Virus record (IMG/VR): IMGVR_UViG_3300046534_000888
Location: 1-56,018 of that record
DNA: 56,018 nucleotides
Source: a virus
Taxonomy: Duplodnaviria > Caudoviricetes
Strand: one strand, 5' to 3'
This document shows, piece after piece, positions 120 through 11,522 of the stretch. The notes below the pieces were generated by a model. That model saw only the letters and a program-made list of their open reading frames with translations. It was not told the DNA's origin and made no database searches. The position numbers and the translations under genes were made by a program. Each line of letters begins with the position of its first letter. Position 1 is the stretch's first letter.

Positions 120-192
120 TGGCGCGCCCGATAGGACTCGAACCTATAATGTCCCAGCTTCGTAGGCCGGGTTGCATCCAGTTGCCGAGCGC
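120..192 (-). tRNA. tRNA-Arg(ACG), minimal D-arm
   Basis: Acceptor GCGCTCG/CGGGCGC-G-CCA, anticodon arm CCGGC-CTACGAA-GCTGG, T-loop TTCGAGT; D region reduced to GCA-ACTGGA-TGC. Confidence 0.8.
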
Positions 193-197
193 ATGTT

Positions 198-320
198 TGG
201 CGTCCACCGTGGGAATCGAACCCACCCCAATCAGTAAACTATAACGAACATCCGTCTCGAGACAGAATATCATTACCATAGCCATGTTCGTTTAGATTGG
301 TTACCATAGGCTTTCATTAA
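198..320 (-). ncRNA. tRNA-like RNA with T-arm and CCA end but no cognate 5' acceptor strand
   Basis: 3' end GTGGG-TTCGATT-CCCAC-GGTGGACG-CCA; upstream interrupted stem CCAATC/GATTGG plus AACGAACAT/ATGTTCGTT. Confidence 0.55.
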
Positions 321-322
321 AT

Positions 323-411
323 TGGCGGAAAGCCGAGGAGTCGAACCCCTGCCCGATTAAGGACACCACGGTATTCAACACCGTTTGCCGGCCTACCCAG
401 CGGGACCTTCC
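323..411 (-). tRNA. tRNA-Ser(UGA)
   Basis: GGAAGGT/GCTTTCC-G-CCA, anticodon arm ACGGT-GTTGAAT-ACCGT, long variable arm. Confidence 0.85.
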
Positions 412-575
412 ATTAATTGTTTTGCGCTTATTAGATGATCTTGGTAAGCATCCTCCAATAATTGATTAGCGCGTTTTAATAATACTTTGGCAACGATATA
501 CTTTAATTCCCTGTCAACACTGTCAATCAGTGCATGACCTTCAATTATCAATCCGTTTCTTTCTTCTTCGGTCAT
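393..575 (-). CDS. hypothetical protein
   Basis: 60-aa ORF with GAAGGT upstream; end overlaps the tRNA-Ser 5' end. Confidence 0.5.
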   Translation of the reverse strand: MTEEERNGLIIEGHALIDSVDRELKYIVAKVLLKRANQLLEDAYQDHLISAKQLMEGPAG

Positions 576-592
576 ATCATTACCTTCTATAT

Positions 593-1396
593 TTAAAATA
601 GTGTATTGAAGTTTTCGTTTAACTTATATACGTTTGGTGTGTCATTGAAAATGCCTGTTTTAATCTTTTCGTAACCATGAGCTTTCATAGTGTCACGAAA
701 CAACTTTGACATTTTCTTACAATCAATATCACCACGTTTGGTTTCGTATGTCTTGAAATGTCCTATTCCAATCGTACCGAAAGAGTTACATATAACCATA
801 TATTTAGGTTTATTGTGCTCGATGATTTCCTCAACATGAGCAATAGGGTCATGGATATGCTCGAAATATTCTAAAGCAAATACCAAATCAACATGCCCTA
901 ACTCTTTAGAATCTTCTCTCATATCGAAAGAATAACTCTTTTGTAACAATTCACAAAACTTCCATTGTTCTGAGATTTTCAAATTCGTTCCAGTGACTGA
1001 TGCATCAGTGAACATTTCAGTCAATGCGACCGTTGTCATTCCCAAACCATTACCAAGGTCAAGTACACTTTTGACTTCTGGAAACAATCTGTTTTTATGC
1101 TTTTCAATCAACTTCAAGTTTGTTCTTGAATATACCGCCCAACAAGCCCAAACTTCGGTGAAATAATCTTCATGTGAATACACAGAATAATCAATTTCAT
1201 TATTGATAAGAGCATCGAACCACTGACTTTCCAAGTGTTGTAATGGATTATCCATCACGGTTGCTTTAGATTTCTTATAATAAGCAATAAGATCTTGTGT
1301 TTTAAACAAGTGATTTTCTTCCATTGGCCGTATGTTACTATACAACTCTAGGAATTGATTCAATGATTCTTTTGGTTTGTTATCAAGTACTTTCAT
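593..1396 (-). CDS. class I SAM-dependent methyltransferase
   Basis: Motif I VLDLGNGLG and downstream DLVFALEYFEHI; start moved to MKVLDNK because the longer start lies in a duplicated promoter. Confidence 0.8.
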   Translation of the reverse strand: MKVLDNKPKESLNQFLELYSNIRPMEENHLFKTQDLIAYYKKSKATVMDNPLQHLESQWFDALINNEIDYSVYSHEDYFTEVWACWAVYSRTNLKLIEKHKNRLFPEVKSVLDLGNGLGMTTVALTEMFTDASVTGTNLKISEQWKFCELLQKSYSFDMREDSKELGHVDLVFALEYFEHIHDPIAHVEEIIEHNKPKYMVICNSFGTIGIGHFKTYETKRGDIDCKKMSKLFRDTMKAHGYEKIKTGIFNDTPNVYKLNENFNTLF

Positions 1397-1410
1397 ATCT
1401 TTTCTCAATT

Positions 1411-1490
1411 TATCATAACAAGACATACTTGTCAACCATTATTTGGTACTCAATGTTGGAATCGAACCAACGTTTCTGGTATGTAACACC
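1411..1490. repeat. 80-bp direct repeat (other copy 1999-2078)
   Basis: tatcataacaagacatacttgtcaacc...tatgtaacacc identical at both sites; covers tRNA-Val 3' half and most of an early promoter. Confidence 0.95.
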
Positions 1491-1519
1491 GTTTGCCAGC
1501 CTACCTAGCGGGACCTTCC
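1444..1519 (-). pseudogene. chimeric tRNA (5' half Ser(UGA), 3' half Val(UAC))
   Basis: 1485-1519 matches 377-411 with 2 mismatches; 1444-1490 identical to 2032-2078; acceptor stem cannot pair. Confidence 0.9.
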
Positions 1520-1528
1520 ATAATGAAC

Positions 1529-1918
1529 TTAAGTATATTGATCAGGTACGTCTTTATCCATATATTTACGAGCCTGACCGTGGGCATTTTTAATCCATAC
1601 GTTTCCAACATTCGAGTTATACAATATAACCATGTCTTTAACGCTAGGGTTAGTCATATAAGCAATTGCTTTGTTTTCCTTTGATGGACGAGATTCCCAA
1701 CCGTTTGTGCTGAGTATCTCCAAAGCCTTATCACCAGATTTTAATGCATCATAGAAAGGAGGCCCGTAAGCATCTTTCTTCTTCTTGAACAAAGCACGTA
1801 AATGTGGAACTAATTTAAAGTCAGCATTGAATGCCGGATTTGTTGTCATGCTAGATTCAACAAGTGACGTTCTGAATGATTTCGCCGCTTCTAATATTGT
1901 TAAAAATTCGTTGCTCAT
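1529..1918 (-). CDS. hypothetical late protein
   Basis: 129-aa ORF downstream of TATAAATA (1956-1963). Confidence 0.75.
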   Translation of the reverse strand: MSNEFLTILEAAKSFRTSLVESSMTTNPAFNADFKLVPHLRALFKKKKDAYGPPFYDALKSGDKALEILSTNGWESRPSKENKAIAYMTNPSVKDMVILYNSNVGNVWIKNAHGQARKYMDKDVPDQYT

Positions 1919-2031
1919 TGTAATGACCTAGATTATGGTAAGTTAATGTTAAGGTTATTTATAACATCTAAATTTTCTCATTCATTATACATGTATTATA
2001 TCATAACAAGACATACTTGTCAACCATTATT

Positions 2032-2105
2032 TGGTACTCAATGTTGGAATCGAACCAACGTTTCTGGTATGTAACACCAGTGCTAATCCCCTCAGCTAAT
2101 CGAGT
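2032..2105 (-). tRNA. tRNA-Val(UAC)
   Basis: ACTCGAT/ATTGAGT-A-CCA; CTGGT-GTTACAT-ACCAG. Confidence 0.9.
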
Positions 2106-2110
2106 TTAAT

Positions 2111-2189
2111 TGGTGGGCCGAGTTGAATTCGAATCAACTATCTTCCGGTTATGAGCCGGGTGCGTATACCAGACTTATGCCTCCGGCCC
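2111..2189 (-). tRNA. tRNA with CAU anticodon (Ile2 or Met)
   Basis: GGGCCGG/TCGGCCC-A-CCA; CCGG-CTCATAA-CCGG. Confidence 0.85.
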
Positions 2190-2194
2190 GTTGT

Positions 2195-2269
2195 TGGAGC
2201 TTTCACCGAGGATTGAACTCGGGTTTCAACCGTACCAAGGTTGTGTTCTGCCTGCTGAACTATGAAAGC
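2195..2269 (-). tRNA. tRNA-Thr(GGU)
   Basis: GCTTTCA/TGAAAGC; CAACC-TTGGTAC-GGTTG. Confidence 0.9.
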
Positions 2270-2277
2270 GTAGCGTT

Positions 2278-2357
2278 TGGTACCAGTCGAGGAATCGAAC
2301 CTCATATTGGAAATTGAAGTGACGCCTTGACCTCAATTTCCTAGCACCTGCACTGGC
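2278..2357 (-). ncRNA. tRNA-like RNA with an 11-bp stem in place of an anticodon arm
   Basis: GCCAGT/ACTGGT-A-CCA, T-arm TGAGG-TTCGATT-CCTCG, stem GGAAATTGAGG/CTTCAATTTCC with 11-nt loop. Confidence 0.7.
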
Positions 2358-2363
2358 CTAAAA

Positions 2364-2434
2364 TGGTTGTGAGCCTAGGTATCGAGCCTAGCTAATCGGA
2401 GATATGAACTCTAATTGGTCCCTGACCGCCCACA
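2364..2434 (-). tRNA. tRNA-Met(CAU)-like, minimal D-arm
   Basis: TGTGGGC/GCTCACA-A-CCA; loop TTCATAT; D-arm GGTC-AGG-GACC. Confidence 0.65.
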
Positions 2435-2440
2435 TTAATT

Positions 2441-2568
2441 TGGATGGAGACTGAGGACTTTCACCTCTCTAAGCCAGTCTCAGGTGGCTTATCAGAACGG
2501 CGTGATATATCACGCAAAAGTTCTAAATAAGATTCACTTCGCATTGGAGTCAATTGCCGTATCATCCA
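2441..2568 (-). ncRNA. structured RNA ending in T-arm-like hairpin and CCA
   Basis: Hairpins GCGTGAT/ATCACGC, TAAGCCA/TGGCTTA, GAGG-TGAAAGT-CCTC; loop GAGACT complementary to 3' AGTCTC. Confidence 0.45.
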
Positions 2569-2625
2569 CGAAGTGTTGCCCGACACATTACAGACGATCG
2601 GCAAACCGCCTTTCATGTACCTTGC

Positions 2626-2694
2626 ATGATGGAAGGATTTGAACCTCCGCCTCCGCCTAACCGCCGGTGCTCTACCAAACTGAGCTACATCAAT
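2626..2694 (-). pseudogene. degenerate tRNA
   Basis: Canonical D-arm GCTC-AGTTTGGTA-GAGC and T-arm; anticodon arm degraded; no CCA. Confidence 0.7.
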
Positions 2695-2695
2695 A

Positions 2696-2821
2696 CTAAC
2701 GTCGCCGAATTACCGTCTATCCTCTAGTCTATTACTGATACGAGATATCTCTCGACAGACATGAAGCAAGGGTCACAAAGGTGTGCCTCTATCCTTTTGT
2801 GTCACAAATAATCCAGCTATT
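2696..2821 (-). ncRNA. repeated ncRNA motif, copy A
   Basis: 5' AATAGCTGGATTATTTGTGACA and 3' GACGGTAATTCGGC form a closing stem; both ends recur at 3189-3290. Confidence 0.6.
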
Positions 2822-3124
2822 TCTTGCCTTGAGGAATTTAACCTCTCCAAGTACAGGCTATACTTATTCAATTAGCTCTTGGCTGCTCCCTTTTTGGGAG
2901 TCTCTGACCAAGCCACATGTTGAATTTAGTTATGATTTTCTTCCCCTACCACTCTCCCATTAAATGGAAATTGTGTTAAAGATATATTTCTTTCCCAACT
3001 GCAATAACTACTATGTAGATAATGAGATTGAAAATATAATTTATACCAGCGACCTCCGCGCAAACGTCGAATTGGTTTAAACCTGTTTAAGAAGTTTGGC
3101 ATTGATTTCTCTTTAAATTATAAT

Positions 3125-3185
3125 TGGTGCAAGGGTGGGATTTCATACCCACAAACATCGACAAATTAGTCAATGAACACCTTGC
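3125..3185 (-). ncRNA. D-armless tRNA-like mini-RNA
   Basis: GCAAGG/CCTTGC-A-CCA, T-like arm GTGGG-TATGAAAT-CCCAC, single stem CATTGAC/GTCGATG. Confidence 0.6.
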
Positions 3186-3188
3186 GTT

Positions 3189-3290
3189 AATAGCGCTGCC
3201 GGATTACCGTCAGGTATTGATATGGAGTCTATCCCAGTCTCCAGTTAACACCACACTTCAGGAGGGCTTGTCACAAATAATCCAGCTATT
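3189..3290 (-). ncRNA. repeated ncRNA motif, copy B
   Basis: 22 bp (3269-3290) identical to 2800-2821; 3' GACGGTAATCCGGC. Confidence 0.6.
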
Positions 3291-3291
3291 A

Positions 3292-3411
3292 TGGTGCGCG
3301 CGAGGGGGTATTGAACCCGTTACATGATCATCTCTAGAATATCTCATGAGACCTTCTCTTCTGAGTCAGAGTCTGAGTCAGAAGCGCATTGGCCTTTATG
3401 CTATCGCCGCG
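3292..3411 (-). pseudogene. degenerate tRNA-Leu(CAG)-like gene with duplicated anticodon segment
   Basis: CTTCTGA-CTCAGAC-TCTGA-CTCAGAAG, long extra arm, weak T-arm, CCA end. Confidence 0.6.
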
Positions 3412-3531
3412 TAAATTGAAATGATAATGAGTGTGTCAAATGCAAAATCTGAGAAGATTATTTATCGTATCTTACAGCATTTTAACTACACAAGTTGTCT
3501 CGTTTACTCTTGTTACACTCATTATCAATTT

Positions 3532-3620
3532 TGGAGGAAGATGGAGGAATTGAACCCCATCCCATTTCTGGAACACCTCGCTTTCCAAGCGGGCTCGATC
3601 ACCATTTCGAATCATCTTCC
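3532..3620 (-). tRNA. tRNA-Ser(GGA)
   Basis: GGAAGAT/ATCTTCC; loop TTGGAAA; long variable arm. Confidence 0.85.
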
Positions 3621-3688
3621 TAAAATTAATTGAGTGTTAGGCGCCAACTAACTTAATACACAGATAGGCTATCTGCTTTACTCAAGTT

Positions 3689-3778
3689 TGGAGGAAGGCA
3701 TCGTAATTGAAACGAACGCACATTTCTGGCGCGACTGGTTTAGCAAACCGTCCCAAACACCTGCTCAGTTTACCTTCC
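3689..3778 (-). tRNA. tRNA-Ser(GCU)
   Basis: GGAAGGT/GCCTTCC; loop TTGCTAA; long variable arm. Confidence 0.8.
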
Positions 3779-3886
3779 GAAATAGTTTATCCGCTTTGGT
3801 GCATAACTATACAGAACTAATGCACATACGAGTGTTCTGCTCATTCCTATTCACAGCGGATATAATAGGACTATGATCATAAAATG

Positions 3887-3958
3887 TGGCAGGCTAATAA
3901 GGAATCGAACATTACAAGACAACGTTTGGAGTGTCGTCACCGCCCAGCGGCTAACCCA
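3887..3958 (-). tRNA. tRNA-Trp(CCA), minimal D-arm, possibly degenerate
   Basis: Loop CTCCAAA; D-arm CCGC-TGG-GCGG; mismatches in T and anticodon stems. Confidence 0.6.
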
Positions 3959-3964
3959 TAAATT

Positions 3965-4042
3965 TGGAGCATAGAGTCGGATTCGAACCGACGGCTTTTA
4001 CGCTTTGCAGGCGCATACTTTGGGCCACTTAGTTACCTATGC
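3965..4042 (-). tRNA. tRNA-Cys(GCA)
   Basis: GCATAGG/TCTATGC-T-CCA; loop CTGCAAA. Confidence 0.9.
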
Positions 4043-4047
4043 ATATT

Positions 4048-4164
4048 AACAGAATCTTTGCGTCATGCGACTTTTATTCAAGTTTTTATTGCTGTATAGA
4101 TTCTAATATAACAGGATAGCATTTAGTTTCATTTCGAGTGAAGTTTGGTTGCTGTTACTATCCT
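4048..4164 (-). ncRNA. two tandem ACAGCAA hairpin elements
   Basis: AGAATCT-AT-ACAGCAA...AGATTCT-GTT and AGGATAG-TA-ACAGCAA...CTATCCT-GTT. Confidence 0.55.
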
Positions 4165-4171
4165 AAAAAGT

Positions 4172-4243
4172 TGGTGGAGAATAACGGTAACGATCCGTTC
4201 CTGCCTCGGTGCAAGCGAAGCGTCAGTCCCATACTGATTCCCC
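4172..4243 (-). tRNA. tRNA-Ala(UGC), minimal D-arm
   Basis: GGGGAAT/ATTCTCC-A-CCA with G3-U70; loop CTTGCAC. Confidence 0.8.
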
Positions 4244-4249
4244 ATATTT

Positions 4250-4335
4250 TGGTGGTTATGGAAGGATTCGAACCCTCAATGACTAGCATACCGCCGGGTT
4301 ACAACCGGGTGCCCTTCCTAATGGGCGTCACAACC
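4250..4335 (-). tRNA. tRNA-Tyr(GUA)
   Basis: Loop TTGTAAC; long variable arm; CCA. Confidence 0.9.
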
Positions 4336-4341
4336 TTAAAG

Positions 4342-4414
4342 TGGAGCGGATATGGGTAATCGAAACCCAGCAGTACGGCTTGGAAGGCCGACGACTCACC
4401 TCGAGCTTATCCGC
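4342..4414 (-). tRNA. tRNA-Gly(UCC)
   Basis: GCGGATA/TATCCGC-T-CCA; loop CTTCCAA. Confidence 0.85.
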
Positions 4415-4465
4415 AGTTCTATCCTTTTATTTTAGGTCGGTAGGATAAACACCGTAAAACGAAAT

Positions 4466-4541
4466 TGGTAGCAGAGGAAGGATTCGAACCTCCGACCTCT
4501 GGGTTATGAACCCAGCAATCTGACCACTGATATACTCTGCG
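4466..4541 (-). tRNA. initiator tRNA-fMet(CAU)
   Basis: C1:72 mismatch, three G-C pairs (GGG/CCC) closing loop TTCATAA. Confidence 0.9.
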
Positions 4542-4549
4542 TTAAATCT

Positions 4550-4622
4550 GTAGGTGACGGATTTTTACCGTCTTCTCCGATAAAGGCTTTATCGCCGAAT
4601 CGAAAGCACATTGCTATACCTA
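4550..4622 (-). ncRNA. tRNA-like element without CCA
   Basis: TAGGT/ACCTA closing stem, T-like arm GACGG-TAAAAAT-CCGTC, hairpin CGATAAAG/CTTTATCG. Confidence 0.45.
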
Positions 4623-4630
4623 ACAAAAAA

Positions 4631-4706
4631 TGGCGCCGTTGATGGGAATCGAACCCACCTATTTCTCGCAGACAACGAGTTGAGATACCCAGACCCCTAC
4701 AACGGC
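4631..4706 (-). tRNA. tRNA-Asp(GUC)
   Basis: GCCGTTG/CAACGGC-G-CCA; loop TTGTCTG (U37). Confidence 0.85.
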
Positions 4707-4791
4707 TTAATTTTCTATTTCTTATACATGTATTATAACATAATAAAGGTCGTTTGTCAACCCTTTGTTGTTATTTTATAATACATAAAAT

Positions 4792-4869
4792 TGGTCTCGA
4801 CGGTTCGATTCGAACGAACGACCCCATGGTTCCAAACCAAGTGCGCTAACCAGACTGCGCTACGCCGAG
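4792..4869 (-). tRNA. tRNA-Pro(UGG)
   Basis: CTCGGCG/CGTCGAG-A-CCA; loop TTTGGAA. Confidence 0.9.
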
Positions 4870-4910
4870 ATATATACTACATACTTATCGAGGGAAGTAT
4901 CTAACCTATT

Positions 4911-4986
4911 TGGTGCGACCCCGAGGGATTGAACCTCGTTGTCTGGTTCTTCAAACCAGCGCATTGACCACAATTGCTTGAGTCGC
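4911..4986 (-). tRNA. tRNA-Phe(GAA)
   Basis: CTGGT-TTGAAGA-ACCAG; CCA. Confidence 0.9.
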
Positions 4987-4992
4987 ATAATT

Positions 4993-5068
4993 TGGTGCCG
5001 CAGTGAGGATTCAAACCCCAGACATCTTCATTACAAGTGAAGCGCTCTATCAACTGAGCTACAACGGC
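4993..5068 (-). tRNA. tRNA-Thr(UGU)
   Basis: CTTCA-CTTGTAA-TGAAG; CCA. Confidence 0.9.
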
Positions 5069-5108
5069 AGAGTTCGTCGTTTTTAAATTGGTGACCAACA
5101 CCCAATAT

Positions 5109-5227: not shown

Positions 5228-5261
5228 AATTTGGCATCCCCGATAGGACTCGAACCTACAT
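5228..5261. repeat. 34-bp duplication of the tRNA-Arg(UCU) 3' end (att-like)
   Basis: aatttggcatccccgataggactcgaacctacat identical to 5468-5501. Confidence 0.95.
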
Positions 5262-5262
5262 T

Positions 5263-5430: not shown

Positions 5431-5471
5431 ATATCTGATTCTCTCAAGTTTGTAATATAATTCCTAAAATT

Positions 5472-6116: not shown

Positions 6117-6602
6117 CTATCGAAGTGCTGGGTAAACGTAATCACAATTCCACCAAATGTAATGGTTAAGATTGTTATCAGTATCACCATCTAAATGTCG
6201 AATATGGTGTTGCAATTCGTGCCGAAGAGTTTGTTTCCATTCGGTATCGAAATGACGACCAGTCGCGACGACAATTTTAAAATCAACGAAGTGATATGTT
6301 CCCCAAACGTCACCATTGGTGTGACCTGTGGCATATGATTCGAAACTAACAACATCGCGGAATTCGATTTGAACCTGCATATCGTATTCCATATCAACAC
6401 ATTCTTTGACAGCACGCCATTCATAATCAATGATGGCCGCCAATTCTGCGTCGGTTTTCTTATTACTGTTATTGACAATCTCTGCCCCAACATAAGGACT
6501 TGTCAACCCTGCATAAGCATTGGCAGGTTGATCGTCGGGAACACCACAAGCCGATATCGACAAAGCGAGAATCAGAGTGGAACCTAATTTATTAAGTTTC
6601 AT
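6117..6602 (-). CDS. lipoprotein with HExxH zincin-like motif
   Basis: Lipobox LSISAC; TLRHELQHH. Confidence 0.7.
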   Translation of the reverse strand: MKLNKLGSTLILALSISACGVPDDQPANAYAGLTSPYVGAEIVNNSNKKTDAELAAIIDYEWRAVKECVDMEYDMQVQIEFRDVVSFESYATGHTNGDVWGTYHFVDFKIVVATGRHFDTEWKQTLRHELQHHIRHLDGDTDNNLNHYIWWNCDYVYPALR

Positions 6603-6814
6603 GATAGTTCAATAACCTGATCATATTCATCGTCTTCATAATCACCGAGATCGTCTTCGGCAATACATTCACCGTCACCATTTGTGAACTGAAGACATAC
6701 GCAATATATGTGTTCATTGTATTGACCATGGTCGGCAAACATTGTGACGGCAAGATCACCTTTGCCTTCATCAATGAGTTCTTGTAATTTGATAATCAAA
6801 TCTTTCGCTTTCAT
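6599..6814 (-). CDS. hypothetical protein
   Basis: Acidic 71-aa ORF, ATGA overlap with next gene. Confidence 0.75.
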   Translation of the reverse strand: MKAKDLIIKLQELIDEGKGDLAVTMFADHGQYNEHIYCVCLQFTNGDGECIAEDDLGDYEDDEYDQVIELS

Positions 6815-6821
6815 AATATAG

Positions 6822-6938
6822 TTACCTTTCTTTCACGTTGAACTTCGATTTACCCTTGCGGGTGTAATCCTTTTTCTTATCACGCATCACAACAGACTTG
6901 TTGTATTTACGAGCATGTTTTGCCACGGGGTTATTCAT
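6822..6938 (-). CDS. small basic protein, ArfA-like C-terminal motif
   Basis: Hand translation MNNPVAKHARKYNKSVVMRDKKKDYTRKGKSKFNVKER; AGGAGAGG RBS. Confidence 0.65.
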   Translation of the reverse strand: MNNPVAKHARKYNKSVVMRDKKKDYTRKGKSKFNVKER

Positions 6939-6961
6939 AAACCTCTCCTAATGTTCTTACA

Positions 6962-7135
6962 AGGTGCGGTTGGTTTCGAACCAACTACAAGGGGACTAAT
7001 CCTTGACTTAGAATAAGGGCTCATTGGTAGTCCGATCCAATTACCGTTTATTCTTTTTGTGCCACTGAAATCGATAGTCCACCTAGACTAGGGTCTGGCG
7101 ATGTTTCAATTCCTTACACTTTTCTTTTCGCACCC
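6962..7135 (-). ncRNA. multi-domain tRNA-like RNA with complementary GGACTA/TAGTCY loops
   Basis: Acceptor GGGTGCG/CGCACCT and T-arm GTTGG-TTCGAAA-CCAAC enclose three hairpin domains. Confidence 0.65.
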
Positions 7136-7278
7136 TGTAAAAACACTGTGTCGTGTGAATCATAGTTTCCGCAGGATAACCATTGGACTTATTGATATTA
7201 ACCACGACCGAGTATTATTACTTTGTACATTCTAATTTATTGAAGATCAATCATCCGAGGAACACTCGAACGTTTTTC

Positions 7279-7441
7279 TATTTCTTATACATGTATTATA
7301 ACATGTTTTAAAACCTTTGTCAACAACTATTTCTAAAGAGTTAATTGAAATCGATAGTCCACCTAGACTAGGGTCTGGCGATGTTTCGATTTCTTATACA
7401 TGTATTATAACATGTTTTTAAACCTTTGTCAACAACTATTT
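7279..7441 (-). repeat. tandemly duplicated early promoter flanking a 42-bp copy (7346-7387) of 7066-7107
   Basis: atttcttatacatgtattataacatgtttt.aaacctttgtcaacaactattt occurs twice. Confidence 0.9.
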
Positions 7442-7714
7442 GACATTTATTTCTAAAGAGTTAAAGGATACATTGTATGCCTTAACTTCGTAACCTGATT
7501 CCCTAAAAGCACTATAAGCATTCTTATGGCGTTTAGCAAATTCATAAATAGTCTCGAGGTCATCAAAATCGATGCAATAAAACTCTCGGTCTCTATGACC
7601 TAACTCGATGTTTAGATCGCCATCACCATCAACGACGATATCGTTCGTAGTCCCAGGCACCAACTTGTCAAAGGGTATAGACTGTTCCAATTCCCTTTCT
7701 TCGTTAAAATTCAT
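7436..7714 (-). CDS. hypothetical early protein
   Basis: Directly downstream of early promoter cassette. Confidence 0.75.
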   Translation of the reverse strand: MNFNEERELEQSIPFDKLVPGTTNDIVVDGDGDLNIELGHRDREFYCIDFDDLETIYEFAKRHKNAYSAFRESGYEVKAYNVSFNSLEINVK

Positions 7715-7722
7715 AATATGCG

Positions 7723-7821
7723 CTTCTCAATTAATTTATACATGTATTATATCACGGTTATCGTGGTTTGTCAACAACTATTTCATAATTAGTTCGTATA
7801 TCGTTAGAACTTTTAGTTATA
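7723..7821 (-). promoter_or_regulatory. early promoter cassette (representative of about 24 copies) with upstream TATAACTAAAAGTTCTAACGATATACGAACTAA box
   Basis: TTGACA-17-TATAAT-ACATGTATAAATTAATTGAGAAG. Copies near 1986, 4723, 7286, 7395, 7983, 9090, 11494, 11850, 15649, 19081, 20518, 24188, 25896, 26960, 30793, 33430, 34927, 36117, 38625, 41376, 43668, 47850, 51232. Confidence 0.9.
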
Positions 7822-7823
7822 TT

Positions 7824-7899
7824 TGGTCCTCAATGGAAGAATCAAACTTCCCTCTATCGGTTATCAGCCGATTGTAATCAATCAATATACTAATTGAGG
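7824..7899 (-). tRNA. tRNA-Ile(GAU)
   Basis: CCTCAAT/ATTGAGG-A-CCA; ATCGG-CTGATAA-CCGAT. Confidence 0.88.
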
Positions 7900-8061
7900 G
7901 TTGCGCCGGACTTGCATCAATCGGAATCGATCAAAGCCGTGTATTGCCGGTCATACCTAAATCCCTTCGTTTCCTAATTCCTATACATGTATTATATCAC
8001 AGTCCATGTACATTGTCAACCTTTTTCTTATCTAATTGCGACAAGTTTTGTTCTATTTGCG

Positions 8062-8128
8062 ACACCCTCATAGCTTGATTCTAGCAGGGTTATCCCCTTC
8101 GAGCTATATAGCATTCAGTGTAAGCAGT
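8062..8128 (-). ncRNA. two-copy structured motif (other copy 41453-41517)
   Basis: ACTGCTTACACTGAATGCT identical in both; shared AGGG..TAACCYTGCT hairpin. Confidence 0.5.
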
Positions 8129-8130
8129 CC

Positions 8131-8160
8131 AAAAAAAACCCCGAACAAAGCCGGGGTTTC
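8131..8160 (-). terminator. intrinsic terminator of attenuator 2
   Basis: AAACCCCGG-CTTTGT-TCGGGGTTT followed by U-tract. Confidence 0.9.
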
Positions 8161-8184: not shown

Positions 8185-8292
8185 TCACATTCCACATAGC
8201 CCCGTGATAACCATACCACTCACTCTCGCCCAATTTCCGCGATTATTAATCGTCGGATATTGCGATATAAACTGTGATTGAATTGAAGTCAT
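8185..8292 (-). CDS. putative attenuator leader peptide 2 (35 aa)
   Basis: MTSIQSQFISQYPTINNRGNWARVSGMVITGLCGM between late promoter TATAAATA (8320-8327) and terminator; contains CGGGG antiterminator strand. Confidence 0.75.
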   Translation of the reverse strand: MTSIQSQFISQYPTINNRGNWARVSGMVITGLCGM

Positions 8293-8322
8293 GATGCTCT
8301 GTTTAATTGGTTATACGTTTAT

Positions 8323-8997
8323 TTATACAAGTTGTGAACTGTTACTTGAACTATTTTTCATTTTTTTTCGTCCAAATCCCAATCCTACAAGTCCTGCACC
8401 GAACAAAGCAAAGGTTGCAGGTTCGGGTACTTGTGCTACTGGTTCACATGTTCCTTGATTAATTGCGAAGTTACCAAAACCCCATTCCAATGGGTCCAGT
8501 GTTACTGAGCTAATGTGGGAACAATCACCAACGGTATTACTAGTTGAATGGAAACTGAATCCTGGGGTATTATTTCTACTAACATTAAACCATTCTCGTT
8601 CAGATATAGTTCCAGAGGTTTCCGCGACTGTTAACCAAGCATTATCTCTAATCGTTCGCAAGTTCGCGCCGACATTCAATGAAAAGGCGAAGGTGTTTTC
8701 TGGCATGATCAAAGTTATTATATTTTCATTTGTTATGAAGACTTCATAATCCTGACCCGGCGCTGTATTAAACCAACTATTGTCGCTAGCCAATTCCTCA
8801 TCCATTAATATAACTGGAAGTCCCCCCGACAAATCACCGTAGCGAAAGGCACTTTCATCGAATTCAAATTCGGACATGGTATAACCGCCGATGGTTGAAG
8901 GGATTACGGTTTCAGTGGAATATTCCGAATGTATTAATTGGGCATGAGCACCGAAACTCATTGTTATCATTAAAAGAAAAGCTGTTATATATTTCAT
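8323..8997 (-). CDS. PEP-CTERM sorting domain protein
   Basis: Signal peptide (...GAHA) and C-terminal VPEPATFALFGAGLVGLGFGRKK. Confidence 0.9.
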   Translation of the reverse strand: MKYITAFLLMITMSFGAHAQLIHSEYSTETVIPSTIGGYTMSEFEFDESAFRYGDLSGGLPVILMDEELASDNSWFNTAPGQDYEVFITNENIITLIMPENTFAFSLNVGANLRTIRDNAWLTVAETSGTISEREWFNVSRNNTPGFSFHSTSNTVGDCSHISSVTLDPLEWGFGNFAINQGTCEPVAQVPEPATFALFGAGLVGLGFGRKKMKNSSSNSSQLV

Positions 8998-9828: not shown

Positions 9829-9911
9829 TGGTACGCCGAATCGGATTCGAACCGATAAAGGTCTTGCGTTTGAAGCAAGTAGCTGTGCCAATTTACATTA
9901 ACCACCGGCGC
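9829..9911 (-). tRNA. tRNA-Leu(CAA), short variable arm
   Basis: CTTGC-TTCAAAC-GCAAG; enlarged D-loop. Confidence 0.85.
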
Positions 9912-9919
9912 TTAACCTT

Positions 9920-10138
9920 TTAAACTGTCTCTGTGCGTGCCTGTTCGATCAAAGCAATGTGCTTTCTAATCCACCGCATGAATAGAATAGCCTTGTCTTG
10001 GGCGTTCATAGCTGCCGTACCAACGTCATTTGTGGGAACGGGAAATTCAAACCCACATTCAGTTGTATACCATAACTCATCTTCCTTGAAGAAGAGGAAT
10101 GTCACTTTCTTGTTTTTGATCATATCTTTGATATTCAT
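9920..10138 (-). CDS. hypothetical protein
   Basis: 72-aa ORF with AGGA RBS. Confidence 0.8.
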   Translation of the reverse strand: MNIKDMIKNKKVTFLFFKEDELWYTTECGFEFPVPTNDVGTAAMNAQDKAILFMRWIRKHIALIEQARTETV

Positions 10139-10160
10139 AATATTTCCTGTATTGTTATAA

Positions 10161-10289
10161 TTTGACCACGGGCTTCAACTCCGCAACCCGAAACAGTGAT
10201 CGTATCACTTCTTTAAGGTAGTCTTGCAAGTGTTTAAGATTATGAGTCTTTACTTACTTGTTCAATCTATGCTTACGCATTTGGTCAAA
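10161..10289 (-). ncRNA. candidate structured RNA inside tRNA cluster
   Basis: Closed by tttgacca/tggtcaaa with internal hairpins; no ORF. Confidence 0.35.
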
Positions 10290-10292
10290 ATT

Positions 10293-10369
10293 TGGTGGAA
10301 TGCCGCGGATTCGAACCGCGATCAGCCGGAGTAAGAGTCCGGTATAATTGCCATTTATAATAGCATTCC
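10293..10369 (-). tRNA. tRNA-Lys(CUU)
   Basis: CCGGA-CTCTTAC-TCCGG. Confidence 0.9.
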
Positions 10370-10374
10370 ATATT

Positions 10375-10457
10375 TGGTAGGCAAGGAGGGAGTCGAACCC
10401 TCAAAGGTCTGGATTTTAAGTCCAGTAGCTGTACCAATTTACATTAACCACCTGCCC
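10375..10457 (-). tRNA. tRNA-Leu(UAA), short variable arm
   Basis: CTGGA-CTTAAAA-TCCAG. Confidence 0.85.
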
Positions 10458-10463
10458 ATAATT

Positions 10464-10546
10464 TGGTACGTCGAGAGGGATTCGAACCCTCAAAGGTCTA
10501 GTGTCTAAAACTAGTAGCTGTGCCAATTTACATTAACCACCGACGC
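10464..10546 (-). tRNA. tRNA-Leu(UAG), short variable arm
   Basis: CTAGT-TTTAGAC-ACTAG. Confidence 0.85.
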
Positions 10547-10570
10547 TTAATCTTTTATGTCAACATTTTA

Positions 10571-10837
10571 TTAAAATTGTTTACTGGCCTGTCGGATAAT
10601 CCGAACAAATGTTTCCAGTAAATCTGTATCATTCAATAATTCGAAATGTATACGCTGCGCTTCACTTAAATGTATTGCTGTTGCCTGATGTTGCTTACGC
10701 TCTTTGTTACTGCAAAGCAGTTTAATACCAGTATCGTCAATGTAATAATTCTGCCATTGCATGGTTTCTTTAGAAAAGAGCCCCAGTAATTTTATTTCAT
10801 ACAGGATTTTGTCGTACATTATATCACGCATGTTCAT
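10571..10837 (-). CDS. hypothetical protein
   Basis: Start moved to MNMRD (AAGGA RBS); longer start overlaps tRNA-Glu. Confidence 0.7.
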   Translation of the reverse strand: MNMRDIMYDKILYEIKLLGLFSKETMQWQNYYIDDTGIKLLCSNKERKQHQATAIHLSEAQRIHFELLNDTDLLETFVRIIRQASKQF

Positions 10838-10863
10838 AATCTTGTTCCTTAATTGCATAAACT

Positions 10864-10937
10864 TGGTACACCATAGGGGAGTCGAACCCCTCTTCACGGA
10901 TTGAAAACCCGTTGTCCTACCGATAGACGAATGGTGC
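10864..10937 (-). tRNA. tRNA-Glu(UUC)
   Basis: ACGGG-TTTTCAA-TCCGT. Confidence 0.9.
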
Positions 10938-10944
10938 ATAAACT

Positions 10945-11020
10945 TGGTGGGCCCACGGAGATTCGAACTCCGATAACCGGATTAAAAGTCCGGGATAATT
11001 GCCCTTTATATTATAGGCCC
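10945..11020 (-). tRNA. tRNA-Lys(UUU)
   Basis: CCGGA-CTTTTAA-TCCGG. Confidence 0.9.
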
Positions 11021-11025
11021 ATATT

Positions 11026-11116
11026 TGGTGCAGCGCCTGGGGTTCGAACCCAGAGTGGGAGTTTCCTCTCGCCGGATTAAAAGTCCGGTACCTTCAGCCA
11101 ATTCGGTCAACGCTAC
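11026..11116 (-). tRNA. tRNA-Lys(UUU) with long variable arm
   Basis: CCGGA-CTTTTAA-TCCGG plus V-arm GAGAG-GAAA-CTCCC. Confidence 0.85.
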
Positions 11117-11122
11117 GTTGTT

Positions 11123-11197
11123 TGGTGTCTCTGAAGGGAATTGAACCCTCTACTCTTGGGTGAAAGCCAAGCGATCTAACCGGTAATCCACAGAGAC
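11123..11197 (-). tRNA. tRNA-Glu(UUC)
   Basis: CTTGG-CTTTCAC-CCAAG. Confidence 0.9.
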
Positions 11198-11216
11198 ATA
11201 TTCTTTAAATTTATTT

Positions 11217-11292
11217 TGGGGTGCAGCTTGGGTTTCGAACCCAACCCTCATGAGTCACAGTCATGCATGCTTCCAGTTACACCTGCCGCACC
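11217..11292 (-). tRNA. tRNA-His(GUG)
   Basis: G-1/C73; CATGA-CTGTGAC-TCATG. Confidence 0.9.
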
Positions 11293-11317
11293 CCAAAATA
11301 AACTTTTCTTCTCCCAT

Positions 11318-11350
11318 AAAAAAACCCGCATTAGGAGAATAATGCGGGTT
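11318..11350 (-). terminator. intrinsic terminator of attenuator 1
   Basis: AACCCGCATTA-TTCTCC-TAATGCGGGTT followed by U-tract. Confidence 0.92.
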
Positions 11351-11377
11351 AAATAAGCTTCTTATTGTCAGTTATTA

Positions 11378-11455
11378 TTAGCTGAAGCTTACCATTCCCG
11401 CGCATGATTTCTCATGCTTCTCGAGTTGTTCTAGTTTTAGTAATAATGTTTTCAT
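11378..11455 (-). CDS. putative attenuator leader peptide 1 (25 aa, Leu/Lys/Glu/His-rich)
   Basis: MKTLLLKLEQLEKHEKSCAGMVSFS, triple TAA; 5 nt after TATAAATA (11461-11468); GCGGG antiterminator strand. Confidence 0.8.
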   Translation of the reverse strand: MKTLLLKLEQLEKHEKSCAGMVSFS

Positions 11456-11460
11456 GTGTT

Positions 11461-11522
11461 TATTTATACAAGTTAATTGTTTAATGTGTAACTATTATAA
11501 CATAGTTTCGTGTGTTTGTCAA
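11461..11522 (-). promoter_or_regulatory. tandem early (TTGACA-17-TATAAT) and late (TATAAATA) promoters of the tRNA cluster
   Basis: attataacatagtttcgtgtgtttgtcaa and tatttata on + strand. Confidence 0.85.

What the first reader, a model, noticed from the sequence alone, without database searches (positions are those of the whole stretch)
120..11522. Two leader-peptide attenuators whose codons partition like the tRNA sub-clusters they precede: a candidate tRNA-depletion sensor
Seen: the tRNA array has two blocks. Block 1 (9829-11292) holds only His, Glu x2, Lys x3 and Leu x3. Block 2 (120-7899) holds Ile, Asn, Arg, Thr, Phe, Pro, Asp, Met, Gly, Tyr, Ala, Cys, Trp, Ser and Val. Each block is preceded by the same layout: TATAAATA late promoter, short ORF, G-rich strand near the ORF end, inner hairpin, intrinsic terminator. 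Leader 1 is L/K/E/H at 13 of codons 2-16. Leader 2 has no L, K, E or H in its first 31 codons and instead samples T,S,I,Q,F,Y,P,N,R,G,W,A,V,M. Established: trp/his-type attenuation couples ribosome stalling to antitermination, and hosts cleave tRNAs with anticodon nucleases during infection. Inference: the phage monitors which tRNA pools fail and transcribes the matching replacements. I am not aware of such codon-matched attenuators being described for phage tRNA arrays. Caveats: block 2 also has internal early promoters, so attenuator 2 would govern only late read-through. Asp is absent from leader 2. The three Gln codons predict tRNA-Gln genes left of the window.
Basis: partly seen in the sequence, partly recalled or inferred. 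Interest (0 to 1): 0.96.

Follow-up and report, generated by a model that had tools for sequence, protein, structure and literature searches.

The report
Codon-matched leader peptides before phage tRNA arrays
Short translated leaders followed by terminators sit in front of this phage's tRNA gene blocks and are spelled almost only with the codons that the tRNAs behind them read, and the same design recurs in unrelated large phages, so it looks like a built-in gauge that switches on tRNA genes when those tRNAs run short.

Summary
The window is a fragment of a T4-like phage. Its tRNA array is split as described. Each block is preceded by TATAAATA, a short ORF, a G-run, an inner hairpin and a strong intrinsic terminator. 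Both ORFs are compositional extremes of the window. A diverged relative (G001, 198.8 kb) keeps both leaders, both terminators, the same tRNA partition, and has tRNA-Gln at the far end of its array. The G-run competes with the terminator far more than in shuffled sequence. A ribosome placed at the stop codon restores the terminator.

The decisive evidence comes from an unbiased survey of terminator-to-tRNA junctions in other large phages. It found non-homologous leaders with the same property: 7 of 10 matched leader/block pairs reach z>=3.3, against 0 of 86 mismatched pairs. One genome carries two leaders with complementary compositions. Leu/Ser/Arg codons match the isoacceptors present in 34 of 40 cases. 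A cultured phage, Ralstonia phage RsoM2USA, carries an unannotated example.

Limits: translation, read-through and the trigger are inferred. Leader 2 is weaker, because a perfect promoter follows its terminator. Many arrays lack such leaders. Nine literature searches found no description.

The parts
11494..11522 (-). Sigma-70-type promoter upstream of leader 1 (TTGACA, 17 nt, TG-extended TATAAT; 12 of 12 matches)
   Evidence: The same element sits at the same place in the relative (L014 4853-4881).
11461..11468 (-). TATAAATA (T4-type late promoter motif), 5 nt before the ATG of leader 1
   Evidence: The same TATAAATA-N5-ATG spacing is seen at ORFs starting at 9804 and 12807.
11378..11455 (-). 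Leader ORF 1, 25 codons plus stop: MKTLLLKLEQLEKHEKSCAGMVSFS. Lys, Leu, Glu or His occupy 13 of codons 2-16.
   Evidence: The homologue in the relative has 13 of 16.
11402..11417 (-). Hairpin A inside leader ORF 1 (6 bp, GAAA loop)
   Evidence: Against the relative, 2 of 6 pairs changed on both sides and 1 changed GC to GU; all cells stay paired.
11397..11401 (-). G-run GCGGG, the candidate antiterminator strand, complementary to CCCGC in the 5' arm of terminator 1
   Evidence: It is kept in the relative although a 1-nt indel shifts the reading frame there.
11353..11392 (-). Inner hairpin B, which holds the stop codon of leader 1. In the antiterminator form the G-run:C-run helix encloses it.
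   Evidence: The relative has a hairpin at the same place with a different sequence.
11316..11350 (-). Intrinsic terminator T1 (11-bp stem 11350-11323, then 7 U), 31 nt before tRNA-His
   Evidence: No promoter-like site of 10 or more of 12 matches lies between it and the end of block 1.
9829..11291 (-). tRNA block 1: His, Glu, Lys, Lys, Glu, an ORF of about 91 aa, Leu(tag), Leu(taa), Lys(ctt), a 72-aa ORF, Leu(caa)
8320..8327 (-). TATAAATA upstream of leader 2
   Evidence: Not conserved as TATAAATA in the relative.
8185..8292 (-). Leader ORF 2, 35 codons plus stop: MTSIQSQFISQYPTINNRGNWARVSGMVITGLCGM. No Leu, Lys, Glu or His in the first 31 codons.
   Evidence: Its codons cover 13 of 15 (or 16 of 18) anticodons of block 2.
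8231..8262 (-). Conserved 13-bp imperfect hairpin inside leader ORF 2
   Evidence: Against the relative, 1 pair changed on both sides, 1 pair is broken and 11 are unchanged.
8200..8204 (-). G-run CGGGG, complementary to CCCCG in the 5' arm of terminator 2
   Evidence: The base before the G-run, the arm and the 3' arm change together in the relative (read by eye).
8127..8160 (-). Intrinsic terminator T2 (stem 8160-8135, then 8 U). It also reads as a terminator on the plus strand.
7991..8019 (-). Perfect sigma-70-type promoter between T2 and tRNA-Ile. It gives block 2 an attenuator-independent start.
   Evidence: Same arrangement in the relative (L014 6857-6885).
124..7899 (-). tRNA block 2: Ile, Asn, Arg, Thr, Phe, Pro, Asp, Met, Gly, Tyr, Cys, Ser, Val, and possibly Ala, Trp and a second Arg. 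It is interspersed with ORFs and further perfect promoters and runs off the left end of the window.

Best explanation
The two elements are ribosome-mediated transcription attenuators of the trp/his kind, but what they control is the phage's own tRNA genes. Transcription from the promoters upstream enters a short leader ORF. Its central 'sensor' codons are almost all codons read by the tRNAs encoded downstream.

If those codons are decoded quickly, the ribosome runs to the stop codon. That codon lies 13-17 nt past a G-run in the window (7-12 nt in the relative) and inside the inner hairpin. The ribosome then masks the G-run, the terminator folds, and transcription stops before the tRNAs.

If any of the matching tRNAs is scarce, the ribosome stalls earlier. 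The G-run pairs with the C-run of the terminator's 5' arm around the inner hairpin. The terminator cannot form, and RNA polymerase reads into the tRNA block. The block then supplies the missing tRNAs and closes the loop.

Shown here: the anatomy, its conservation, the competing RNA pairings, and the codon-to-tRNA match, including its recurrence in other phages.

Inferred: that the leaders are translated, that stalling rather than fast translation gives read-through, and what depletes the tRNAs. Candidates are host shut-off, codon demand or host anticodon nucleases.

Leader 1 gates all of block 1. Leader 2 can gate only read-through from upstream into block 2, because block 2 also has promoters of its own.
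For: (a) Layout. Promoters, short ORF, G-run, inner hairpin and terminator lie directly before the tRNAs. No promoter-like site of 10 or more of 12 matches lies between T1 and the end of block 1. In the relative none lies between T1 and T2. Block 1 can therefore be made only by read-through of T1.

(b) Composition extremes: 0 of 12,346 and 12 of 10,954 windows in the phage's own proteins; 3 of 189,337 and 249 of 171,977 in other large-phage proteins; 1 of 335 and 1 of 128 short ORFs, these being the leaders themselves.

(c) The relative G001 (72-aa neighbour gene 63% identical):
- It keeps both leaders (83% and 82% column identity).
- It keeps both terminators, with changed upper stems.
- It keeps the His/Glu/Lys/Leu block and the rest of the partition.
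- Glu12 becomes Leu by three base changes, which stays inside the block's set.
- AAG becomes AAA in the phage that lacks tRNA-Lys(ctt).
- Hairpin A has 2 compensatory pairs.

(d) RNA switch. The probability that the terminator's C-run pairs upstream is 0.52 for leader 1 of the window, 0.95 for leader 2 of the window and 0.24 for leader 1 of the relative. Shuffled upstream sequence gives means of 0.003-0.044, and 0, 2 and 1.3% of 150 shuffles reach the observed values. For leader 2 of the relative it is 0.00 without a ribosome and up to 0.85 with a ribosome at codon 6. With a ribosome at the last codons or at the stop, the terminator probability is 1.00 in all four.

(e) Independent replicates. 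The junction survey found 15 terminator-to-tRNA junctions, 10 with an ORF and an informative block.
- 7 of 10 matched pairs have z of 3.3-4.7.
- 0 of 86 mismatched pairs reach 3; the maximum is 2.56.
- In one genome (G002) the two leaders score +3.5 and +4.7 against their own blocks, and -3.1 and -4.5 against each other's.

(f) Codon level.
- 34 of 40 Leu/Ser/Arg codons are strictly cognate to an isoacceptor in the block, and 39 of 40 fall in the right codon box.
- In 5 of 7 leaders every anticodon of the block has a cognate codon, for example 11 of 11 in L092.
- Simulation with each phage's own codon usage gives P from 0.0018 to below 5e-6 for cognate-codon counts. Leader 2 of the window gives P of 0.012-0.019.

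(g) Homologous attenuator modules. RsoM2USA, G002 (two modules) and G003 share an AAGGC...GCCTTTTTT-type terminator (G003: AAGGG...CCCTTAATT). Their sensor regions are completely different and track their blocks.
Against: No expression, ribosome or termination data were available (no RNA holder listed).

Leader 1 has no Shine-Dalgarno sequence. However, only 26 of 102 ORFs of the window have one by my regex, and two longer ORFs share the same TATAAATA-N5-ATG start.

Thr and Gln codons are conserved in leader 1 although their tRNAs are not in block 1. In the relative, Leu5 is Ile in leader 1, and Ile4 is Leu in leader 2; both changes go against the partition.

Leader 2 has no Asp codon and no codon for Ser(gga), although both tRNAs are in block 2.

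A perfect promoter follows T2 in both phages. TATAAATA before leader 2 is not kept in the relative.

The folding model is an equilibrium model and is sensitive to sequence boundaries. With slightly different ends, leader 1 of the window gave P(anti) of 0.03. Of the five other-phage leaders, one (L061) shows 0.21 without a ribosome and four show at most 0.04. L059, L077 and L092 rise at some ribosome positions, and L027 hardly at all.

The looser scan without a terminator requirement is only modestly enriched: 8 of 66 blocks against 13 of 583 decoys at p<=1e-3, and 1 of 66 against 1 of 583 at 1e-5.

Misses in the junction survey: L025/L032 (z -1.8) and L069 (z 1.1). No ORF was found at L011 and L065.

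Among cultured phages, phi-Grn1 (KVP40-like), Munch and EH7 (T5-like) gave no leader. XacN1 and XbC2 gave only doubtful ones.

The L077 leader resembles part of a 65-aa membrane-type ORF in L033 and may be a false positive.

Only two lineages carry the window's own leaders, so covariation counts rest on two sequences. The shuffle control is uninformative: 125 of 500 and 244 of 500.
Confidence: 0.75

Rival explanations
1. The leaders are matched to the tRNAs and do sense them, but the output is not the classical terminator/antiterminator choice with stalling giving read-through. Alternatives are Rho-dependent polarity, control of processing or stability of the mRNA-tRNA precursor, or the opposite sign, in which fast translation promotes read-through.
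For: The L043/L047 leaders (Pro/Leu/Ser arrays) show the codon match, but my finder found no canonical terminator after them. Equilibrium folding gives little or no antiterminator for L027 and only partial signals for L059, L077 and L092. In L011 a terminator lies 21 nt before tRNA-His inside an array with no ORF at all, so terminators in arrays also occur without leaders.
Against: In the window and its relative the G-run:C-run pairing is far above shuffled controls, and it is abolished by a ribosome at the stop codon. The stop codon lies 7-17 nt after the G-run in all four leaders. The spacer from stop codon to terminator is about 25-36 nt, too long for a terminating ribosome to cover the terminator itself.
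Confidence: 0.15
2. These are ordinary small late genes, each with its own terminator, that happen to lie before tRNA blocks. On this view the composition match is coincidence: a Lys/Leu/Glu-rich helix in leader 1 and a polar peptide in leader 2.
For: Leader 1 can be drawn as an amphipathic helix. In the relative, leader 2 plus T2 sits at the end of the block-1 transcription unit, followed by a new perfect promoter, which is what an operon terminator looks like. T4-like genomes are full of tiny ORFs (recalled).
Against: Both ORFs are the single extremes of the window for the property that the tRNA blocks define. The same match recurs in non-homologous leaders: 7 of 10 matched against 0 of 86 mismatched pairs. 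It holds at the level of isoacceptors. Two leaders in one genome have complementary compositions. C-terminal residues are not conserved, whereas the RNA elements are.
Confidence: 0.04
3. The elements are untranslated structured RNAs, either small RNAs ending at the terminators or 5' leaders of the tRNA precursors. On this view the ORFs are incidental.
For: RNA-level conservation is strong: compensatory pairs in hairpin A and in the leader 2 hairpin, and a G-run kept across a frame shift. Leader 1 has no Shine-Dalgarno sequence. T4 makes small stable RNAs of unknown function from its tRNA region (recalled).
Against: An untranslated RNA gives no reason for amino-acid and codon composition to follow the downstream tRNA set, within one genome or across phages. 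The ATG, the in-frame 3-nt indel in leader 2 and a stop codon just after the G-run are all kept. Rfam has no family match on the leaders at E<=1 apart from chance-level hits far below their gathering scores.
Confidence: 0.04

Closest known systems
Ribosome-mediated (leader-peptide) transcription attenuators of amino-acid operons (trp, his, leu, thr, ilvGMEDA, pheA)
   Same: A short ORF between promoter and regulated genes. Regulatory codons cognate to what the operon supplies. An intrinsic terminator whose 5' arm can pair instead with an upstream strand. A stop codon placed so that a terminating ribosome covers that strand. ilv and thr show that several amino acids can be sensed by one leader. 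The general scheme is as in the abstract of PMC1183508 (seen in the listing). The operon details are recalled.
   Different: The regulated genes are tRNA genes, not biosynthetic enzymes, so the sensed molecule and the product are the same kind of molecule. The leader is not a run of one codon. It is a 'barcode' of up to 13 amino acids and up to 16-17 anticodons, roughly one or a few codons per downstream tRNA. The host is a phage genome, and the promoters include T4-type late motifs.
pheST attenuator (pheM leader) and hisS leader peptides: attenuation of aminoacyl-tRNA synthetase genes
   Same: A leader peptide senses the charging of one tRNA and controls a gene of the translation apparatus. 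The hisS leader peptides were seen in passages of PMC2965389. pheM is recalled.
   Different: They sense one amino acid, regulate a protein gene and are chromosomal. The passages of PMC2965389 that I read contain no mention of tRNA genes or phage (0 occurrences of either term).
T-box riboswitches
   Same: They sense tRNA status and switch between terminator and antiterminator.
   Different: T-boxes bind uncharged tRNA directly, without translation, and have a conserved Stem I and T-box sequence. Rfam found no T-box in 1-12600 at E<=1, and the elements here contain conserved ORFs.
T4 tRNA gene cluster
   Same: A T4-like phage with clustered tRNA genes, small ORFs and small RNAs, transcribed from upstream promoters (recalled).
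   Different: I know of no leader-peptide control described for it. I did not test T4 itself. A KVP40-like phage that I did test (phi-Grn1) showed no such leader.

Membership tests
Leader-peptide (ribosome-mediated) transcription attenuator | Short ORF between a promoter and the regulated genes | tested here: met
   Leader 1: promoters at 11522-11494 and 11468-11461, ORF 11455-11378, tRNA-His at 11291. Leader 2: TATAAATA at 8327-8320, ORF 8292-8185.
Leader-peptide (ribosome-mediated) transcription attenuator | Regulatory codons cognate to what the downstream genes supply are enriched in the ORF | tested here: met
   Leader 1: 13 of 15 codons, z 3.3, P 0.0018. Leader 2: P 0.012-0.019. Replicated in other phages.
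Leader-peptide (ribosome-mediated) transcription attenuator | Intrinsic terminator between the ORF and the regulated genes | tested here: met
   T1 at -15.3 kcal/mol with 7 U; T2 at -13.4 kcal/mol with 8 U. Both are kept in the relative.
Leader-peptide (ribosome-mediated) transcription attenuator | Antiterminator pairing mutually exclusive with the terminator | tested here: met
   Window and relative: P(anti) of 0.52, 0.95 and 0.24 against shuffle means of at most 0.044. The fourth leader shows it only when unmasked. In the five leaders of other phages this is inconclusive.
Leader-peptide (ribosome-mediated) transcription attenuator | Geometry: a ribosome at the stop codon blocks the antiterminator, and a ribosome stalled at sensor codons leaves it free | tested here: met
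   The stop codon lies 7-17 nt after the G-run in all four leaders. In the model the terminator probability is 1.00 from about codon 16 (leader 1) or codon 28 (leader 2 of the window) onward, and the antiterminator reaches 0.8-0.99 at earlier codons. This is an equilibrium model only.
Leader-peptide (ribosome-mediated) transcription attenuator | The leader is translated, and read-through responds to supply of the cognate aminoacyl-tRNA | not testable with these tools
   No RNA run was listed. This needs reporter, Term-seq or Ribo-seq experiments.
T-box riboswitch | Conserved Stem I, specifier loop and T-box sequence (Rfam model) | tested here: not met
   No T-box hit in 1-12600 on either strand at E<=1.
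T4-type late promoter | TATAAATA at about -10 of the transcript start | tested here: inconclusive
   The motif is present before both leaders. The window has 12 copies against 5.1 expected. Use as a promoter was not tested, and the motif is not kept before leader 2 of the relative.

The most novel reading that the evidence does not exclude
Large phages from several unrelated lineages carry a previously unrecognised class of 'tRNA-barcode' attenuators. Each tRNA sub-array is preceded by a leader peptide that holds about one codon for each tRNA species encoded behind it. This gives the phage separate closed-loop control of each sub-array's tRNA supply. It would let the phage answer selective tRNA loss, for example from host anticodon nucleases or host shut-off, by transcribing exactly the matching replacements. 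The modules evolve by keeping the ribosome-binding region, the antiterminator and the terminator while rewriting the sensor codons as tRNA genes are gained or lost.
Probability: 0.6. Interest if true: 0.93.

Novelty: new variant of a known kind. Interest (0 to 1): 0.9.

Why it matters
How phages regulate their tRNA genes is largely unknown. Why tRNA arrays are broken into sub-clusters has had no functional explanation either.

A leader peptide that lists the codons of the tRNAs behind it would explain both points. It would show that phages measure decoding capacity codon by codon, and it would link tRNA arrays to the arms race over tRNA cleavage.

It also extends classical attenuation to a case where the regulated product is the sensed molecule itself.

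It would supply natural, compact sensors for individual tRNA pools. It would also give annotators a rule for finding unannotated regulatory ORFs: the example in the cultured phage RsoM2USA has no feature in its GenBank record.

The idea is directly testable with reporter fusions.

Tried and rejected
Searches for relatives and homologues:
- Near-identity and distant DNA searches of the leader region against cultured phages found only tRNA matches.
- Single-protein locus searches in IMG/VR with four neighbouring ORFs found no true relatives (L001 and L002 are 15-residue chance matches).
- Degenerate patterns for both leaders found only the G001 lineage in IMG/VR. In prokaryote genomes they found one chance match in a MAG, L091.
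- The tRNA-His word found nothing in prokaryote genomes.
- nhmmer and tblastn of the leaders against all 80 fetched loci found no further homologues.
- A full HMMER search with leader 2 found only four repeat-protein chance hits.
- Leader 2 was too short for the search for homologous proteins.
- No RNA holder was listed for the window.
- Megablast of the L027 and L061 modules, and blastn of the RsoM2USA module, found no further cultured carriers.

Candidates set aside:
- L077, treated as uncertain after its resemblance to a membrane-type ORF in L033.
- L050, L074, L076, L058 and L069 from the loose scan, as not convincing.
- The XacN1 (L104) and XbC2 (L108, L109) ORFs, as doubtful.

Ideas considered and rejected:
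- That the leader-tRNA match merely reflects general phage codon usage. The two leaders within one genome are complementary.
- That the leaders are T-boxes or known Rfam RNAs.

Literature: nine searches gave no paper on leader-peptide control of phage tRNA arrays. I read only listings and abstracts, plus passages of PMC3082878 and PMC2965389. Subscription papers and supplements were not seen.

Full report
WHAT THE WINDOW IS

The 56-kb record is all that is held of this genome. Its large ORFs include topoisomerase II subunits, ribonucleotide reductase, DNA ligase, RtcB and an RNA ligase. The topoisomerase large subunit is about 52% identical to those of KVP40/nt-1-like Vibrio phages. The record is therefore a fragment of a new T4-like phage. 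All tRNA genes are on the minus strand, so transcription runs from right to left in window coordinates.

THE OBSERVATION

Block 1 (9829-11291) holds His, Glu x2, Lys x3 and Leu x3. The third Leu appears only at a relaxed ARAGORN threshold.

Block 2 (124-7899) holds no Leu, Lys, Glu or His tRNA. Ala, Trp and a second Arg rest on relaxed ARAGORN only. Gly, one Met and one Asn are backed by Rfam.

Leader 1 consists of:
- a perfect extended -10 promoter at 11522-11494;
- TATAAATA at 11468-11461;
- a 25-codon ORF at 11455-11378;
- a hairpin inside the ORF, then the G-run GCGGG;
- an inner hairpin that holds the stop codon;
- terminator T1 at 11350-11323 followed by 7 U, 31 nt before tRNA-His.

Leader 2 has TATAAATA at 8327-8320, a 35-codon ORF at 8292-8185, a conserved hairpin, the G-run CGGGG, an inner hairpin and terminator T2 at 8160-8135. 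A perfect promoter at 8019-7991 then follows, before tRNA-Ile.

T1 and T2 are the only clean strong terminators my finder reports on the coding strand of 1-12600.

IS THE COMPOSITION MORE THAN CHANCE?

The test uses the property that the tRNA blocks define, membership in {L, K, E, H}.
- No 15-residue window of the phage's own 87 ORFs reaches 13 (0 of 12,346). Only 12 of 10,954 31-residue windows have none.
- In about 204,500 residues of other large-phage proteins the counts are 3 of 189,337 and 249 of 171,977.
- Among all 335 short ATG ORFs of the window, leader 1 is the only one with 11 or more of 15. Among the 128 that are long enough, leader 2 is the only one with none in 31.

A RELATIVE

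A word from tRNA-His found a complete 198.8-kb phage genome (G001; loci L003-L005, L010, L013, L014) and a near-identical copy of the window (L009).

G001 is well diverged; the neighbouring 72-aa protein is 63% identical. It nevertheless keeps:
- the perfect promoter, TATAAATA, a 24-codon leader 1 (L/K/E/H at 13 of codons 2-17) and T1;
- a block of His, Glu, Leu, Lys, Glu, Leu, Leu;
- a 33-codon leader 2, T2, a perfect promoter and tRNA-Ile.

Between the two phages:
- Glu12 of leader 1 becomes Leu through three base changes and stays within the block's set.
- Ser17 becomes Leu.
- AAG becomes AAA in the phage that lacks tRNA-Lys(ctt).
- Against the idea, Leu5 becomes Ile.
- In leader 2 of the relative, position 4 is Leu.

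In the relative no promoter-like site of 12 of 12 lies between T1 and T2. T2 there also ends the block-1 transcription unit.

RNA LEVEL

Hairpin A of leader 1 keeps all six pairs. Two pairs change on both sides and one changes GC to GU.

The leader 2 hairpin has one compensatory pair and one broken pair out of 13. With only two sequences the shuffle controls say nothing (125 of 500 and 244 of 500).

The G-run of leader 1 is kept although a 1-nt indel shifts the frame.

In leader 2 the base before the G-run, the terminator's 5' arm and its 3' arm change together (read).

In partition-function folding the terminator's C-run pairs upstream with these probabilities:
- 0.52 for leader 1 of the window;
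- 0.95 for leader 2 of the window;
- 0.24 for leader 1 of the relative;
- 0.00 for leader 2 of the relative.

Dinucleotide shuffles of the upstream part give means of 0.003-0.044. For the first three leaders, 0, 2 and 1.3% of 150 shuffles reach the observed value.

In leader 2 of the relative the G-run is held by the start of the ORF. It is freed when a ribosome covers codons 4-8, reaching up to 0.85.

A 30-nt ribosome mask at the last codons or at the stop gives a terminator probability of 1.00 in all four leaders. Masks at earlier codons give antiterminator probabilities of up to 0.8-0.99.

These are equilibrium estimates and depend on the sequence ends. With other ends, leader 1 of the window gave 0.03 without a ribosome.

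THE DECISIVE TEST: OTHER PHAGES

The 72-aa ORF inside block 1 belongs to a large family: 789 homologues and phrog_20427. I used this family to fetch 80 loci of large phages. tRNAs lie in 49 non-duplicate loci.

I applied a fixed rule:
- a clean terminator at most 150 nt before a tRNA;
- the longest ATG ORF of 12-75 aa ending between 70 nt before and 8 nt after the start of the terminator stem;
- the block taken as the tRNAs up to the next terminator or a 1-kb gap.

The rule gave 15 junctions in these loci, the extra clusters and the window. Two had no ORF (L011, L065). Three had uninformative blocks of one amino acid or all twenty (L014 T2, L053, L078).

Of the remaining 10:
- 7 leaders are enriched for the amino acids of their own block: z of 4.0, 4.6, 3.8, 3.5, 3.5, 4.7 and 3.3 for L014, L027, L059, L061, L077, L092 and the window;
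- 3 are not: L025 and L032 (one family) at -1.8, and L069 at 1.1;
- none of 86 mismatched leader/block pairs reaches 3; the maximum is 2.56.

The L061 leader is MTFATIINRQAKPAQRATRTVVVAFAPAFNMNAPKHDDRSQALSGIILKI. It precedes tRNAs for 13 amino acids, and its first 39 residues use exactly those 13. The L092 leader is MFASSLYLLSCLEESSYSYCEWAQALVGGTETM. It precedes Leu, Trp, Glu, Tyr, Ser and Cys tRNAs, and residues 4-22 use only those six. Each leader scores negatively against the other's block (-3.1 and -4.5).

At the codon level:
- 34 of 40 Leu/Ser/Arg codons are strictly cognate to an isoacceptor present in the block, and 39 of 40 fall in the right box.
- In 5 of 7 leaders every anticodon of the block is represented, for example 11 of 11 in L092.
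- Simulation with each phage's own codon usage gives P of 0.0018 for leader 1 of the window, 0.00024 for the relative, and 4e-4 to below 5e-6 for the others.
- Leader 2 of the window gives P of 0.012-0.019 for cognate codons. Its coverage is 13 of 15 or 16 of 18 anticodons; Asp(gtc) and Ser(gga) are missing.

A looser scan without the terminator rule is noisier. It gives 8 of 66 blocks against 13 of 583 decoys at p<=1e-3, with no separation at 1e-5. It added the L043/L047 lineage, where arrays of only Pro, Leu and Ser tRNAs are preceded by a Leu/Ser/Pro-rich leader and my finder saw no canonical terminator.

A MODULE FAMILY AND A CULTURED EXAMPLE

The modules of L027 (G003), L061 and L092 (G002) and of Ralstonia phage RsoM2USA share a terminator of the same type. 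Their sensor regions are entirely different.

In RsoM2USA (MG752970.1) the ORF MFNAFNNNQRQNQAAMFDVRAIAFNAKNDIKGVALVE lies after TATAAATA. It is followed by the terminator and, 12 nt after the matched terminator pattern, by tRNA-Met. Residues 2-31 all belong to amino acids whose tRNAs follow (counted). The GenBank record has no feature there.

No such leaders were seen in phi-Grn1 (KVP40-like), Munch or EH7 (T5-like). XacN1 and XbC2 gave only doubtful ones. The design is therefore recurrent but not universal.

The L077 case may be a false positive. Its C-terminal half resembles a 65-aa membrane-type ORF in L033.

HOW IT MOST LIKELY WORKS

See Best explanation.

Shown: the anatomy, its conservation, the competing pairings, the codon/tRNA concordance and its recurrence.

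Inferred: translation of the leaders, the sign of the response and the physiological trigger.

Translation of leader 1 without a Shine-Dalgarno sequence is plausible in this phage. Only 26 of 102 ORFs have one by my regex, and two longer ORFs (starts at 9804 and 12807) share the TATAAATA-N5-ATG arrangement, which suggests leaderless late mRNAs.

Leader 1 controls all of block 1, since no other strong promoter-like site lies there. The scan does not cover T4 middle promoters.

Leader 2 can control only read-through into block 2, which also has its own perfect promoters.

The phage also encodes RtcB, an RNA ligase and a tmRNA. This fits a phage that invests in keeping translation running.

COMPARISON WITH WHAT IS KNOWN

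The mechanism is that of classical leader-peptide attenuation. Every sequence-level defining feature is met for the window's elements (see Membership tests).

What is new:
- the regulated genes are tRNA genes;
- the leader is a multi-codon list of the downstream tRNAs;
- it sits in phage genomes, one per sub-array.

It is not a T-box.

Nine full-text searches and passages of two papers turned up no description. Papers outside the library and supplementary files were not seen.

VERDICT

The finding is real, not chance, and probably an instance of a wider, undescribed regulatory design. Confidence in the attenuator-sensor reading is 0.75. Leader 1 is the stronger case and leader 2 the weaker. 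Interest is 0.9.

Noticed in passing
window 9920-10138 (-): This 72-aa ORF inside block 1 belongs to a very widespread family of unknown function: 789 homologues at E<=1e-3 and phrog_20427. The family sits in or beside tRNA arrays of many large phages of 100-520 kb and occurs in cultured jumbo phages such as GAP32, CBB, RsoM2USA and XacN1. Invariant residues include W23, Y24, G29, F30, P33, D38 and R55.
   Followed up: partly
window 1-12600 (-), and L014 3500-12204: Ten promoter-like sites match the full consensus TTGACA-17 nt-TG-extended TATAAT at 12 of 12, nine of them on the coding strand. The relative has six. They punctuate the tRNA array, for example directly before tRNA-Ile and tRNA-Asp.
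   Followed up: partly
window 11455, 9804, 12807 (-): Three ORFs start exactly 5 nt after TATAAATA, and one (11843) starts 6 nt after a perfect TATAAT. This suggests leaderless mRNAs. Only 26 of 102 ORFs have a 4-nt Shine-Dalgarno match.
   Followed up: no
window 8323-8997 (-): This 224-aa phage ORF has a signal-peptide-like N-terminus and a PEP-CTERM sorting domain (TIGR02595, 21.8 bits against a cut-off of 16). That hints at a host with an exosortase.
   Followed up: partly
window 36625-37019 (-), 21725-22951 (-), 24877-25875 (-): The phage encodes a tmRNA, RtcB and an RNA ligase. Together these form a kit for tRNA repair and ribosome rescue beside the tRNA array.
   Followed up: no
window, upstream of ORF starts at 34905, 33410, 15630, 7714, 36095 and others (-): A repeated block of about 25 nt, ending in the start codon and beginning AATTAATTGAGAAG, precedes at least five ORFs. 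It may be a shared translation-initiation or regulatory cassette.
   Followed up: no
L011 3592-3611: In a 344-kb phage a strong terminator lies 21 nt before tRNA-His inside a tRNA array. tRNA-like sequence lies upstream, and there is no leader ORF.
   Followed up: no
L043 1169-1264, L047 719-916: These phage arrays hold only Pro, Leu and Ser tRNAs. They are preceded by a leader made mostly of Leu, Ser and Pro and using many different codons of each. My finder found no canonical terminator.
   Followed up: partly
window 124-202, 1444-1543, 2364-2434, 3887-3957, 4176-4251, 5159-5247 (-): These tRNA-like sequences are found only at a relaxed ARAGORN threshold and have no Rfam hit at E<=1. They may be degenerate or unusual tRNAs. 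Trp and Ala calls recur at the syntenic place in the relative.
   Followed up: no
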